In this document: positions 40,773 to 48,428 of the stretch, piece by piece
Layout: every line of letters starts with the position of its first letter
Numbering within the stretch: the stretch's first letter is position 1
Source: the human T2T-CHM13v2.0 reference genome, Homo sapiens
Length of the DNA stretch: 64,000 nt
Assembly (NCBI RefSeq): GCF_009914755.1
Contig: NC_060929.1
Reading direction: 5' to 3' (one strand)
Notes under the pieces: model-generated
What the model was told of the DNA's origin: nothing
The model's input: only the letters and a program-made list of their open reading frames with translations
Databases searched by the model: none
Program-made: the position numbers and the translations under genes

Positions 40773-41436
40773 AAAAAACAGAAAATAAGTGTCAGAATGC
40801 GGAGAATAGAAACCCTTGTGCATTGTTGATGGGAATGTAAAATGTAAAATGATGCAGCCTCTATGAAAAACACTATGGAGATCATCAAAAAATTCAAAAT
40901 AGAATGACCAAGCGGAATCCAGCAATCCCACTTCTGAGTATTTATCTAAAAGAACTGAAATCAGGATCTCAAAGAGATACCTGCACTCCCATGTTCACCG
41001 CAGCATTATTCACAATAACCAAGAGGTGGAAACAACTGAAATGTCCATTGATGGGTGAGTGGATAAAGAAAATACAGTATATCCATACAATGGAATATTA
41101 TTCAGCCTTACAAAGAACTGAATCCTGTAATATGCTACAACACAGATGAACTTCGAGGACATTTTACTAAACGAAATAAGTCATCACAGAAGGACAAATA
41201 CTGCATGATTTCAGTTATATGAGGTATCTAAAGTAGTCAAACTCACAGAAGCACAGAGTAGAATGGTGGATGCCAGGGGCTGGTGGGAGGTGGAAACGGG
41301 GAGGTGTTCGATAGGTCTAGAGTTTCAGTCACGCAAGAGAAAAAGTTCCAGAGATCTGCTGCACAACAGTGTGCTTATAGTTTACAATACTATATTGTAT
41401 ACTTAAGAATTTGATAAGAGAACAGACTTCATGTTG

Positions 41437-41744
41437 TATTTATTTATTTATTTATTTTCTGAAATGGAGTCTCACTCTGTGGCCCAGGCTGGAGCGCAGT
41501 GGTGCAATCTCGCTGCAAACTCTACCTCCCAGGTTTTAGAGATTCTCCCACCTCAGCCTCCTGAGTAGCTGGGATTACAGGCACCTGCTACCACACCTGG
41601 CTAATTTTTTGTATTTTTTTTTTTAGTAGAGTTGGGGTTTCGTCATGTTGGCCAGGCTGGTCTCGAACTCCTGACCTCAGGCGATGCACCCACCTCGGCC
41701 TCCTGAAGTGCTGGGATTACAGGCATGAGCCACTGTGCCCAGCC
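41437..41744 (-). mobile_element. Alu (AluS)
   Basis: Full dimer with (TATT)n tail. Confidence 0.93.
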
Positions 41745-41777
41745 TTATGTTCAACGTTTTTTTTTTTTCACCACAAC

Positions 41778-41845
41778 AAAAGAGAGAAAGAGAGAAGGAA
41801 GGAAGGAAGGGAGGGAGGGAGGGAGGGAGGGAGGGAGGGAGGGAA
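41778..41845 (+). repeat. Polypurine (GA)/(GGAA)/(GGGA)n tract
   Basis: About 68 nt of purines including 9 GGGA units. Confidence 0.9.
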
Positions 41846-42096
41846 TAGAAAGTGGGGTAACATCTTTCTTTGTTAGAGAATATTTTCATCTTTTAACATG
41901 TAAACAAAGTGTCTAACAACTATAAGCAGGTCTCAGTTCACTCATTTATCTTACCTGCCTGGTCCCTTTAGGCATCAGTGTTTATTATCCCAGGTCTACA
42001 GGGCAGTGGTGCTTCATAGGCACAGTCCAGGTTCTCTGGAATCCAGCCCAGACCACCAATTCTTGCTGTCTTACCACTTTGTGACATGTCTCCCAC

Positions 42097-42695
42097 TGTG
42101 ATGGTTCACATTATATGCTGACTTGGCTGGGGTATGGTGCCCAGTAGTTTGGTCAAACACCAGTCTAGATGTTGCTGTGAAGGTAATTTTTAGATGTGAT
42201 TAACATTTAAATTGGTGGAATTTACTAAAGCAGATTATCTTCCATCTTGTAGGTGGGACTCATCTAATCAGTTGACAGTCTTAAGAGCGAAGATTGAGGC
42301 TTCTATAGACGAAGGAATTCAGCCTCAAAACTGCAATACAGAAAGCCTGCCTGAGTTTCCAGCTTGCCTGGCCTGCCATGTGGAATTCAGACTCCAGACT
42401 ACAACACCAACTCATACCTGAATTTCCAGCCTGCTGGCTTGTCCAACAGATTTTGTTCAGCACGCACATCATGTGAGTCAACTCTTTAAAGTAAATAAAT
42501 GTGTCTAGCACGTGCGCTGTCTCTCTCTCTCCTTCCTCCATTTATTACACACATACAGATGGGTGTGTGTATGTATGAAAGGAATGTGGGAGGGTGGGTA
42601 TATTAGTTAGGGTTCTCCAAAGATGTGGAACAAAGATACAGAACAAGTGGGAAAGACAGATCTTTCTGTATCTTTGGAGAACCCTAACTAATATA
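42097..42695 (+). mobile_element. ERVL solo LTR (MLT2C/D-like)
   Basis: Starts TGTGATGGTT, ends GGAGAACCCTAACTAATATA; perfect 5-bp TSD CCCAC (42092-42096 / 42696-42700). Confidence 0.88.
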
Positions 42696-42708
42696 CCCAC
42701 CCTCCCAC
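42586..42708. repeat. Perfect 39-bp inverted repeat with 45-bp spacer
   Basis: 42586-42624 GTGGGAGGGTGGGTATATTAGTTAGGGTTCTCCAAAGAT is the exact reverse complement of 42670-42708. Confidence 0.97.
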
Positions 42709-44204
42709 CTTCCTCACACCACCACCTTCTATCCTCCATGTCCTTGGTCATGCACTTGGCCCTGGTCATGCCACCCCCTTCCACCAGGACATCTTGCCCT
42801 CCCATCCCCCCAGCAATGCATTCTCCTTTAACTCAGTCCAACTGTCACCTTGCCCAGGAAGCTCCCCGTGACCACGCAGACTGGGATATATTTTTCTCCC
42901 CGATGACGCTCGTTTGTGCAGATCCCTCTCAACCCACACATTAAGTTGGAACATGACAACTTCCTTTATGTGGCCCACCAGAAGAGGAACCGTGTCTTAT
43001 TCTGTCAAATGAATGAATAAATAAACGGATGAATCCCAACGTGTTATTACTGAGGAGGACAAACATAATAATCTTAGACAAAAGTAGTTTTACAGAATTA
43101 CCATGTAAATCACCATAGAATAGAATAAATGCTTTGTAATTTAGGGGGAAACAGAAGGATTTTCTGGGCTTCTGGCAAAGCTTTTTCCTAACTAAATCAT
43201 TTCAGGCACAGCTTTTGCAAATGCGTCTTCTGCTGGTCATAATTATGCGACTCCCACCCCCCACTGCTTTGAATTACTTTGTGCTAACACCAAAATTGTT
43301 CCACAGAGAGTAGGATTTATTTGCTGAAATGTGATGAGGAGAAGTGGGATAAGAGACATACTTCACATGCGGTGCCTGTTGCTAGCACAGCTGTATTTCT
43401 GAGAAATATATTTCAGTCTTTTGGCTCCATTTCTTTTGTAGTTTAATAACTGAAGTACAAAGCTCATGAAAGCTGGGAATGTGTTGGAAGGTCAGTGAGG
43501 AAAAATGCACGTGGTGCAGTTAGGAGAGACAAGGGAGTTAAAATAACAGGAGAAATTGATCACTTACGATCTTTCTGGTTGGTGGTTTATGGCTAAATGT
43601 CTGTTTCAGCTAAAGACCAAACACTGGCTCACAGCTACAAAGAAAGTAGAACAATTAAAAAACTCAGCAAGGAGAATTCCTTTTGTACCTCTATTATAAG
43701 CATATTGTTTATTTAAAATTATTTTATGTAATGCCAATAGAGTAATATCTTCATGTCATTATATAAATGTAATGGCAGTGGCTAGTTTTGCCATTGGATG
43801 ACAGTCCTACACACTGGAACACATTTTCTCACCTAGCAGAAAGCCTTGCCTGCAGCACTCACCAAATGCCTCCTACAGTATCTTCCTCATGTGCACAAAT
43901 GGCTTTATGTCAGAAATCAACATCCACTGAGACACCAGAAATTTGAACAGGTCCCTAAAGACAGGTTGACTGCTTTTCCTCCCTGTGGCACAGTCATTTG
44001 CAGTCTTTACTTGGTATTGCATCTGTAAATGGGATGTAGATAATATCGCCATCATTTCCAGGGAATATAGTGTTATCCACATCAGCGTTCATGATAACAA
44101 ACACAATGTCCCAGCTGAACTTTGTAATCAGTACTTTTGGGAGAACCAAGTCTGTTTTAGTTTAACAGATGCATCTGATGTTGTTATCTAACCATCTGAG
44201 GCTG

Positions 44205-47139: not shown

Positions 47140-48287
<1,148 letters not shown>

Positions 48288-48428
48288 GGCTGGGTGCAGT
48301 GGCTCACACCTGTAATCCCAACACTTTGGGAGGCAAAGACAGGAAGACTGCTTGAGGCCAGGAGTTTAAGACCAGCCTGAGCAACACAGACACCCTCATC
48401 TCTACAAAACAAAACAAAACAAAACAAA
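48288..48428 (+). mobile_element. FLAM_C-like Alu left monomer
   Basis: Single monomer with (CAAAA)n tail. Confidence 0.85.

What the first reader, a model, noticed from the sequence alone, without database searches (positions are those of the whole stretch)
42579..42714. Perfect fold-back duplication of an LTR end, its TSD and flank, with a G4 motif in each arm
Seen: 42586-42624 and 42670-42708 are exact 39-bp reverse complements (45 bp with one mismatch). The right arm is the true MLT2 end, plus TSD CCCAC (matching 42092-42096), plus unique flank. The left arm is therefore an inverted copy placed inside the LTR after integration. The spacer holds a second inverted copy (CAAAGATACAGAA 42631-42643 vs 42664-42676) and a mini-hairpin GAAAGA/TCTTTC. 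The arm contains GGG-A-GGG-T-GGG-11nt-GGG, a candidate G-quadruplex. Inference: zero arm divergence inside an ancient element implies either a recent multi-step template switch, possibly triggered by G4 stalling, or ongoing arm-to-arm correction. The result could switch between cruciform and G4, or yield a pre-miRNA-sized hairpin if transcribed.
Basis: partly seen in the sequence, partly recalled or inferred. Interest (0 to 1): 0.7.

Follow-up and report, generated by a model that had tools for sequence, protein, structure and literature searches.

The report
Fold-back copy inside an old LTR
A short stretch spanning the end of an ancient retroviral LTR and the host DNA next to it was later copied backwards into the LTR, which made a near-perfect hairpin; this looks like an ordinary scar of DNA template switching, with no sign of a function.

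Summary
Arms 42580-42624 and 42670-42714 are 45-nt reverse complements with one mismatch and an exact 39-nt core. This is the only near-perfect inverted repeat in the 64-kb window.

- **Element:** 42097-42695 is a real, old solo LTR. It gave 2068 first-look candidates in the genome, K2P of about 0.28 to 29 relatives, and a 5-bp duplication CCCAC.
- **Which arm is the copy:** The right arm is the native LTR end plus duplication plus flank, so the left arm is the later copy.
- **Private to this locus:** 6 of 6 relatives aligned at that end lack the extra block, and 0 of 29 carry such a fold-back.
- **Age:** It is younger than the LTR (P <= 3e-4 for equal age). The limit is loose: up to about 37% of the LTR's age, or roughly 24-53 My. 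"Recent or actively corrected" is therefore not required.
- **Mechanism:** It fits the published template-switch mutation type that creates inverted repeats (PMC5453318, PMC10710096).
- **G4:** The motif is non-canonical and commonplace in the window. On a single strand the hairpin wins by more than 70 kcal/mol.
- **RNA family:** None reaches threshold.
- **Family name:** "MLT2" could not be checked here.
- **Interest:** Low.

The parts
42097..42695 (+). Solo LTR, 599 nt, of an old dispersed retroviral LTR family (class III / ERVL-like by its 5-bp duplication; the subfamily name was not testable)
   Evidence: The own-genome search gave 2068 first-look candidates, of which 40 were scored, at 73-79% identity over the first 360-400 nt or so. 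K2P to 29 relatives is 0.235-0.322. The element starts TG and ends TA and is flanked by CCCAC on both sides. Relatives with both ends seen are 445-465 nt long.
42092..42096 (.). Left copy of the 5-bp target-site duplication, CCCAC
42696..42700 (.). Right copy of the target-site duplication, CCCAC, which lies inside the right arm
42661..42714 (+).
   Evidence: It aligns to the 3' ends of 6 relatives up to 42695 and diverges from all of them after that. It pairs with the left side in three blocks.
42580..42624 (+). Left arm: an inverted copy of 42670-42714, 44 of 45 matching. The AGGAA at 42580-42584 may instead be microhomology at a switch point.
   Evidence: It is absent from 6 of 6 relatives aligned here. 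It contains the reverse complement of the duplication and the flank.
42625..42660 (+). Spacer: a 13-nt insert (42625-42637, repeating CAAAGAT), a copied block ACAGAA (42638-42643), a 7-nt insert (42644-42650), a copied block GAAAGA (42651-42656) and the loop CAGA (42657-42660)
   Evidence: Its 12-mers find no other nearby source, apart from the inverted match to 42663-42677.
42547..42579 (+). A 33-nt CA/TG-rich stretch directly left of the left arm, also absent from the 6 aligned relatives; origin unresolved
   Evidence: Alignment A1. No nearby template was found.
42588..42612 (+). Extended G4 motif with loops of 1, 1 and 11 nt on the + strand, in the copied arm
   Evidence: G4Hunter 1.48; not canonical N1-7
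42682..42706 (-). The mirror extended G4 motif on the - strand, in the native arm. Three G-runs come from the duplication and flank, and the fourth from the LTR end.
   Evidence: G4Hunter -1.64 for the C-rich + strand
41955..42174 (-). Annotated exon of LINC02112 / the TAS2R1 long isoform; its first 78 nt (42097-42174) and its acceptor are LTR sequence. The hairpin lies in the intron upstream on that strand (42175-42848).
   Evidence: Gene table in the brief; splice dinucleotides and distances

Best explanation
An old solo LTR (42097-42695) later suffered a local template switch during DNA synthesis. The growing strand left its template, copied about 45-54 nt spanning the LTR's 3' end, the CCCAC duplication and 14 nt of host flank in reverse complement, and then returned. 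The copy landed 4-45 nt upstream of its source, inside the LTR.

[quoted passage not shown] It could have arisen by the nascent strand folding back on itself around the 4-nt loop at 42657-42660. It could equally have arisen by use of the opposite parental strand.

The two short inserts in the spacer repeat neighbouring bases. This points to extra slips or switches in the same event, or to later small indels.

The result is a neutral scar in an intron. It is younger than the LTR and of unresolved absolute age, somewhere between present-day and a few tens of millions of years.

**Shown:** the repeat, which arm is the copy, that it is private to this locus, and that it is younger than the LTR.
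**Inferred:** the replication mechanism, the number of steps, and neutrality.
For: - **Copy direction:** The arm that abuts the true LTR end is followed by the same 5 bp that precede the LTR start. The other arm carries the reverse complement of that duplication plus non-LTR flank in the LTR interior.
- **Extra block:** 6 of 6 relatives aligned over the 3' part go straight from the LTR body to the terminal 35 nt or so, and they lack window 42547-42660.
- **Length:** Relatives are 445-465 nt and this copy is 599 nt.
- **Not a family feature:** 0 of 29 relatives have an inverted repeat of 25 nt or more at their LTR end. In the 6 of 29 with a 3'-end hit, the hit to the left arm falls on the same bases as the hit to the right arm.
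- **Source of the copy:** The left arm is 44/45 identical to this copy's own end, but only 83-93% identical to any relative's end. It was therefore copied from this locus, late in the locus's history.
- **Age relative to the LTR:** Equal age is rejected, with P(<=1 mismatch) between 8e-6 and 3e-4.
- **No paralogue:** The locus has no paralogue in the reference.
- **Print support:**
  - Type 1-4-3-2 / 3-2-1-4 'creates an inverted repeat' and made up 31% of high-confidence human-chimp events (PMC5453318 passages).
  - Events of 62-125 bp and adjacent double events are reported (PMC9435742 passages).
  - More than 6,000 primate hairpins, and cases with multiple switches, are attributed to this mechanism (PMC10710096 abstract and section 4 part 1).
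Against: - No outgroup or second haplotype could be read. The state before the event is inferred from paralogous LTR copies, not from orthologues.
- One switch-and-return does not explain everything. The 13-nt and 7-nt inserts and the 33-nt CA/TG stretch (42547-42579) have no identified template.
- The left boundary of the inserted block is uncertain, lying between 42547 and 42580. This part of the family is microsatellite-like and aligns poorly.
- Replication and break repair cannot be told apart from the product.
- The relatives are the best-scoring 29 of 2068 candidates, and 6 of them are near-identical duplicates of one copy. The age figures are therefore rough.
- Neutrality is assumed from a lack of evidence, not shown.
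Confidence: 0.62

Rival explanations
1. A repair scar rather than a replication error. A double-strand break inside the LTR, near 42547-42660, was closed by alternative end joining. In this pathway a 3' tail snaps back on nearby sequence and is extended in several aborted rounds, as in polymerase-theta-type templated insertion or synthesis-dependent microhomology-mediated end joining. That leaves a patchwork insert copied in reverse complement from the flank.
For: The spacer is a patchwork. It holds three colinear copied blocks separated by short inserts that repeat neighbouring bases (CAAAGAT twice; GTGGAA and GTGGGAA). Short direct repeats also lie near the block's edges: ATACAGA at 42553 and 42636, and ACAGAT at 42555 and 42656. 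Print describes templated extension in cis ('snap-back') and secondary-structure-primed synthesis in end joining. For PMC4912351 and PMC5728401 I saw only the search listing and the start of each abstract.
Against: By my recollection, not a call, templated inserts of this pathway are mostly shorter than 30 nt or so, whereas the copied tract here is 45-54 nt. The 6-7-nt direct repeats may be chance. The product cannot distinguish this from a multi-step replicative switch.
Confidence: 0.2
2. The inverted repeat is old, but its arms are kept identical by recurrent arm-to-arm correction. Correction would occur through template switching between the arms of a quasi-palindrome, or through short-tract gene conversion.
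For: Arm identity is far higher than the LTR's divergence would predict if the two were of equal age. Print states that template switching between imperfect arms can homogenise them and expand their size (PMC13100816, listing and start of abstract only; the classic model in PMC5453318 passages).
Against: No correction is needed, because 0-1 mismatches in 39-45 CpG-free pairs fits simple youth. The asymmetric 13-nt and 7-nt inserts have not been corrected. By my recollection, arms of 45 nt are short for recombinational conversion in mammals.
Confidence: 0.07
3. The hairpin is functional. It might be a source of small RNAs (a young intronic miRNA or hairpin siRNA) from the LINC02112 / TAS2R1 long transcript, or a structural DNA switch between G4 and cruciform.
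For: It lies in an intron and folds strongly on the transcribed minus strand (-84.6 kcal/mol, z -12.6). Print reports that hairpins born by template switching are enriched in introns and that some became miRNA genes (PMC10710096 abstract).
Against: No Rfam family reaches its gathering score, and the hits are generic long-hairpin matches, several of them to plant families. No miRNA gene is annotated here (and the gene table). The stem is about 50-55 bp against the 35-bp preference. The G4 motif is non-canonical and commonplace, and it loses to the hairpin by more than 70 kcal/mol. The asymmetric bulges and nominal 45-nt spacer should hinder cruciform extrusion, which is an inference from general knowledge. 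No expression data could be consulted.
Confidence: 0.05
4. Assembly artefact: a fold-back chimera from the reads that was carried into the reference.
For: Fold-back chimeras exist in long-read libraries (general knowledge). Reads were not available to me.
Against: The inverted segment is only 45-77 nt. It is embedded between unique, colinear sequence on both sides, and it carries internal inserts and a mismatch, which is unlike a read-level fold-back. The reference is a finished assembly.
Confidence: 0.03

Closest known systems
Short-range template-switch mutations (four-point model; type 1-4-3-2 / 3-2-1-4)
   Same: [quoted passage not shown] This creates a new, initially perfect inverted repeat with hairpin potential, flanked by dissimilar sequence. 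The length is within the reported range, and adjacent multi-switch cases are reported.
   Different: The event is inferred here without an outgroup. The polarity comes from the LTR-end / duplication / flank junction. One switch-and-return does not explain the two spacer inserts or the 33-nt CA/TG stretch.
Primate hairpins and young miRNA genes born by template switching (PMC10710096)
   Same: It is an intronic, near-perfect stem created in one step from unstructured sequence.
   Different: There is no evidence of processing or expression. The stem is longer than the preferred 35 bp, no miRNA is annotated and no Rfam family passes.
Templated (snap-back) insertions of alternative end joining
   Same: It is a patchwork of short tracts copied from the immediate flank in reverse complement, with repeats of neighbouring bases (listing).
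   Different: The copied tract is long for that pathway (recollection). No deletion at the junction can be shown without the pre-event allele.
Solo LTRs of ancient class III (ERVL / MLT-type) endogenous retroviruses
   Same: It is a dispersed family with TG...(C/T)A ends and a 5-bp duplication. Its divergence fits an ancestral mammalian age. Print calls MLT1 and MLT2 the ancestral mammalian LTR subgroups (PMC5538554 passage) and lists the MLT2 LTRs under HERVL/ERVL (PMC5753468 passage).
   Different: This copy is about 135 nt longer than relatives because of the private fold-back block and a 22-nt or so insert. The subfamily name was not verified.

Membership tests
   There were 2068 first-look candidates, 40 scored, all at E <= 3e-49 apart from fragments. 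The 5' start is shared at query base 1-3 in many of them, and the 3' end is shared in 6 of 29 fetched.
   The window copy starts TG and ends TA. Relative L019 ends CA, L010 ends GA and L016 ends TA. This is compatible with a decayed CA.
   The window has CCCAC / CCCAC, 5 of 5. L010 and L019 show 4 of 5 each, and L016 shows none recognisable.
   No repeat library is on hand. The RefSeq soft mask does not even mask this element. A text search with a 10-base stretch of the LTR end plus 'MLT' found nothing relevant. My recollection agrees with an MLT2B-like LTR, but that is no test.
   This was left out, because the brief bars naming through inner genes.
Template-switch mutation (four-point model) | A fragment of 14 nt or more copied in reverse complement from nearby sequence, beyond chance | tested here: met
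   There are 45 nt at 44/45, with an exact 39-nt core and the source 45 nt away. The chance expectation is about 2e-16.
Template-switch mutation (four-point model) | The fragment is absent from the ancestral (outgroup) sequence | tested here: inconclusive
   No orthologue was available. As proxies, it is absent in 6 of 6 aligned paralogous LTR copies and in 0 of 29 relatives, and the copy contains non-LTR flank.
Template-switch mutation (four-point model) | A single switch-and-return explains the whole cluster of differences | tested here: not met
   Inserts of 13 nt and 7 nt in the spacer, and 33 nt to the left of the arm, remain unexplained. Multi-switch cases are nevertheless reported in print.
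miRNA precursor | Match to a curated family at its gathering score | tested here: not met
   The best is mir-641 at 43.7 bits against 100. All 20 hits in 41500-43500 are below their gathering scores.
miRNA precursor | A stem of about 35 bp with an unstructured apical loop of 10 nt or more | tested here: not met
   The stem is about 50-55 bp with a 13-nt bulge. The criterion is quoted from PMC10710096.
miRNA precursor | Small RNA reads with defined ends | not testable with these tools
G-quadruplex motif | Four G3+ runs with loops of 1-7 nt (the canonical definition, recalled) | tested here: not met
   The third loop is 11 nt. The arms appear only under the extended 1-12 rule, as 2 of the 18 such motifs in 64 kb.
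G-quadruplex motif | Experimental G4 formation | not testable with these tools
   There is prediction only. G4Hunter gives 1.48 and -1.64. A single arm alone prefers a G4 in RNA parameters, but the full hairpin does not.

The most novel reading that the evidence does not exclude
The fold-back is very young, either hominid-specific or still polymorphic in people. It would then be a template-switch-born, near-perfect 50-bp intronic hairpin caught before decay. In that case it either feeds small RNAs from the LINC02112 / TAS2R1 long transcript or behaves as an unstable palindrome. The LTR / duplication / flank junction would also give an outgroup-free way to tell copy from source in such events.
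Probability: 0.06. Interest if true: 0.45.

Novelty: new member of a known kind. Interest (0 to 1): 0.2.

Why it matters
This is a clean textbook example of a known mutation class. The copied piece straddles an LTR end, its target-site duplication and unique flank, so source and copy can be told apart from a single genome without an outgroup.

That logic could be used to polarise template-switch events genome-wide at transposon boundaries. Beyond this, the locus adds one more hairpin to the thousands already attributed to the mechanism. Nothing here suggests a function, a disease link or a new principle.

For the virus remnant itself, the element is real and very old, at roughly 60-140 My by pairwise divergence. 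It is a solo LTR with no genes, so it carries no biological risk or coding interest.

Tried and rejected
- **Rfam scan of 41500-43500.** Only sub-threshold generic hairpin hits cover the arms, several of them to plant or viral families. I rejected these as family membership.
- **Search for a paralogue of the locus that could show the pre-event state.** There is none. It returned only self-matches and one unrelated LTR end on chromosome 4.
- **Search for a nearby template for the 33-nt CA/TG stretch and for the spacer inserts.** None was found apart from the inverted match already known.
- **Global alignment of the left side against the reverse complement of the right side.** It gives a different but equally scoring split of the spacer from the block reading I report. 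The fine structure of the spacer is therefore not unique.
- **Two head-to-head LTR insertions.** Rejected, because the left arm carries the duplication and non-LTR flank and is only 45-77 nt long.
- **Fold-back as a family feature of the LTR.** Rejected, since it is seen in 0 of 29 relatives.
- **Naming the family from print.**
  - The searches, and the passages, give the classification and age of the MLT2 LTRs in general.
  - They give nothing that ties this sequence to a named subfamily.
  - The three papers that mention LINC02112 (one passage read) say nothing about this element.
  - I had no primate orthologues, other human haplotypes, reads, small-RNA data or G4 data.
The event catalogues of PMC5453318, PMC9435742 and PMC10710096 may list this locus. 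I therefore cannot say that it is unpublished, only that searches did not show it.
- **What rests on recollection.** Mutation rates, the 5-bp duplication as a class III hallmark, the canonical G4 loop limit, G4Hunter thresholds, the usual size of templated end-joining inserts and the limits on cruciform extrusion and short-tract conversion are all recalled, not taken from calls.
Full report
**The observation.** The window holds a 45-nt inverted repeat, 42580-42624 against 42670-42714, with one mismatch (42585 / 42709) and an exact 39-nt core. A second inverted match, 42631-42643 / 42664-42676, is 13 of 13. The centre holds a mini-hairpin: GAAAGA 42651-42656, CAGA 42657-42660 and TCTTTC 42661-42666. 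As single-stranded DNA the 136 nt fold to -52.6 kcal/mol, against -14.45 +/- 2.69 for 200 shuffles (z -14.2). As minus-strand RNA they fold to -84.6 (z -12.6). About 2e-16 exact 39-nt inverted matches within 300 nt are expected by chance in 64 kb. It is the only near-perfect one of the 4 inverted repeats of 25 nt or more in the window; the other 3 are 76-77% complementary.

**The element: real, how old, what family.** Window 42097-42695 (599 nt) is a dispersed repeat.
- The own-genome search gave 2068 first-look candidates. 40 were scored and 42 matches were listed, 2 of them self-matches, at 73-79% identity over the first 360-400 nt or so.
- The element starts TG and ends TA. CCCAC lies directly outside both ends, at 42092-42096 and 42696-42700. 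It is therefore a solo LTR with a 5-bp target-site duplication.
- Of three relatives with both ends seen, two show 4 of 5 matching flanks and one shows none. Their lengths are 465, 462 and 445 nt.
- K2P distance from the window copy to 29 fetched relatives is 0.235-0.322, median 0.283. Among the relatives the median is 0.307 over 406 pairs.
- Half the median distance gives about 64, 94 or 142 My at 2.2e-9, 1.5e-9 or 1.0e-9 per site per year (the rates are recalled).
- This figure is rough. The 29 are the best-scoring of 2068 candidates. Six of them (L014, L026, L027, L031, L032, L033) are near-identical copies carried in segmental duplications (K2P 0.003-0.023). Subfamily structure is ignored.
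- The figure agrees with print, which calls MLT1 and MLT2 'the ancestral mammalian LTR subgroups' (PMC5538554, passage). Print also lists the MLT2 LTRs under HERVL/ERVL of class ERV3 (PMC5753468, passage).
- By my recollection a 5-bp duplication is typical of that class, and the sequence resembles an MLT2B-type LTR. No repeat library is on hand, the RefSeq soft mask does not cover the element, and print gave no sequence-level match.
- Naming through adjoining internal sequence was left out, as the brief requires.

**Which arm is the copy.** The right arm consists of the LTR's last 26 nt (42670-42695), the duplication (42696-42700) and 14 nt of flank (42701-42714). Six relatives align to the window up to 42695 and diverge from it, and from each other, after that point. 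The left arm carries the reverse complement of all three parts, deep inside the LTR. Only the right-hand junction can have been made by integration, so the left arm is the later copy.

**The block is private to this locus.**
- In alignment A1 all 6 relatives pass from the LTR body straight to the terminal 35 nt or so, and they lack window 42547-42660.
- That extra block consists of 33 nt of CA/TG-rich sequence, the 45-nt left arm and the 36-nt spacer.
- Together with a 22-nt or so insert further left, it accounts for the 135 nt or so by which this copy exceeds its relatives.
- In 6 of 29 relatives with a 3'-end hit (L010, L015, L016, L017, L019, L028), the hit to the left arm lies on the same bases as the hit to the right arm, in opposite orientation. 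A seventh, L030, shows only the left-arm hit at its own end.
- A direct scan found an inverted repeat of 25 nt or more at the LTR end in 0 of 29 relatives. Only L023 has two, and both lie in its flank.
- The locus has no paralogue in the reference.

**Anatomy of the spacer.** Read as a continuation of the copy, the left side 42580-42656 (77 nt) matches native 42661-42714 (54 nt) in three colinear blocks.
- The blocks are the 45-nt arm, ACAGAA 42638-42643 against 42664-42669, and GAAAGA 42651-42656 against 42661-42666.
- They are interrupted by 13 nt (42625-42637, which repeat CAAAGAT) and 7 nt (42644-42650), and they close on a 4-nt loop.
- Both inserts contain GTGGAA or GTGGGAA.
- A scored global alignment splits the spacer differently, so the fine structure is not unique.
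- No other nearby template exists for the inserts or for the 33-nt CA/TG stretch.
- The single mismatch may be a later substitution. Alternatively, AGGAA at 42580-42584 may be pre-existing microhomology at a switch point, so that the copy proper is the exact 39 nt. This is an inference and I could not test it.

**Age of the fold-back.**
- If it were as old as the LTR, 10.6-14.5 mismatches would be expected in 45 pairs. P(<=1) is between 3e-4 and 8e-6.
- It is therefore younger than the LTR, or it has been corrected since.
- The upper limit is loose. One mismatch in 45 gives a 95% limit of 0.053 substitutions per arm, which is 37% of the LTR's per-lineage divergence. The point estimate is 8%, or zero if the mismatch marks a switch point.
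- In years the limit is 24, 53 or 105 My at 2.2e-9, 1e-9 or 5e-10 per site per year.
- The arms hold no CpG, so they evolve more slowly than average, which loosens the limit further.
- 'Zero divergence' over 39 nt therefore does not by itself call for a very recent event or for active correction.

**Mechanism.** The product matches the published class of short-range template-switch mutations.
[quoted passage not shown] That type made up 31% of high-confidence human-chimp events (PMC5453318, passages).
- Events with fragments of 62-125 bp, and adjacent double events, are reported in human variation (PMC9435742, passages).
- More than 6,000 primate hairpins, and cases that need multiple switches, are attributed to the mechanism (PMC10710096, abstract and section 4 part 1).
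- The 4-nt loop fits a nascent strand folding back on itself, but use of the opposite parental strand gives the same product.
- A break-repair origin cannot be excluded, and the patchwork spacer favours it somewhat. Candidates are snap-back templated insertion or secondary-structure-primed end joining (PMC4912351 and PMC5728401, listing and start of abstract only).
- Correction between arms is also in print (PMC13100816, listing and start of abstract only), but it is not needed here.

**G4, cruciform and miRNA ideas.**
- The G-run pattern is real, but its third loop is 11 nt, so it fails the canonical 1-7 rule.
- Under a 1-12 rule the window holds 18 such motifs, and 31 regions reach a G4Hunter score of 1.5. 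The arms score 1.48 and -1.64.
- With G4 allowed in RNA parameters, one arm alone prefers a G4 (-11.1 and -12.6 against -4.6 kcal/mol). The full 136 nt stays a hairpin at -86.8 and -84.6.
- Nothing links the motif to the event.
- All 20 Rfam hits in 41500-43500 fall below their gathering scores, and those over the arms are generic hairpin matches. The best is mir-641 at 43.7 against 100.
- The stem of about 50-55 bp exceeds the 35-bp preference quoted in PMC10710096.
- The hairpin lies in the 674-nt intron 42175-42848 of the minus-strand transcripts, 406 nt from the acceptor and 135 nt from the donor. It would therefore be transcribed with the host. No expression data were available.

**Verdict.** This is a real and neatly polarised example of a known mutation class, sitting in an old solo LTR. 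It is most likely a neutral scar. It is a new member of a known kind, and its interest is low. The decisive evidence is the orthologous sequence in primates and other human haplotypes, which could not be read here.

Noticed in passing
window 41955-42174 (minus strand) and 42097-42174: The first 78 nt of the annotated LINC02112 / TAS2R1-long-isoform exon, and its AG acceptor (42175-42176 read on the minus strand), are antisense LTR sequence. The old LTR has therefore been exonised (and the gene table).
   Followed up: partly
window 42314-42434: The LTR holds an internal direct repeat of about 67-68 nt (42314-42339 / 42382-42407 and 42350-42367 / 42417-42434). Relatives give secondary hits at the same offset, so this is a family feature.
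   Followed up: partly
L014, L026, L027, L031, L032, L033 (chromosomes 22 and 20 of the reference): Six fetched relatives differ by only K2P 0.003-0.023. They look like one LTR insertion carried along in segmental duplications.
   Followed up: no
window 41500-41743, minus strand: Sub-threshold matches to signal recognition particle RNA, with mir-1268 and mir-1285 hits beside them, are the usual signature of an Alu element. This coincides with the masked repeat at 41429-41849.
   Followed up: no
window 47991-48082 and 48256-48347: A 92-nt inverted repeat, 76% complementary, with 173 nt between the arms. It may be two old repeat fragments or a DNA-transposon relic.
   Followed up: no
window 42097-42695: The RefSeq soft mask (stretches of 100 nt or more) does not cover this LTR, although the genome holds thousands of relatives. 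The last masked stretch before it ends at 41849.
   Followed up: no
window 42090-42096 and 42702-42708: The 7-mer CTCCCAC left of the LTR recurs 6 nt beyond the right-hand duplication. The empty site seems to have held CCCAC twice, which does not disturb the 5-bp duplication reading.
   Followed up: partly
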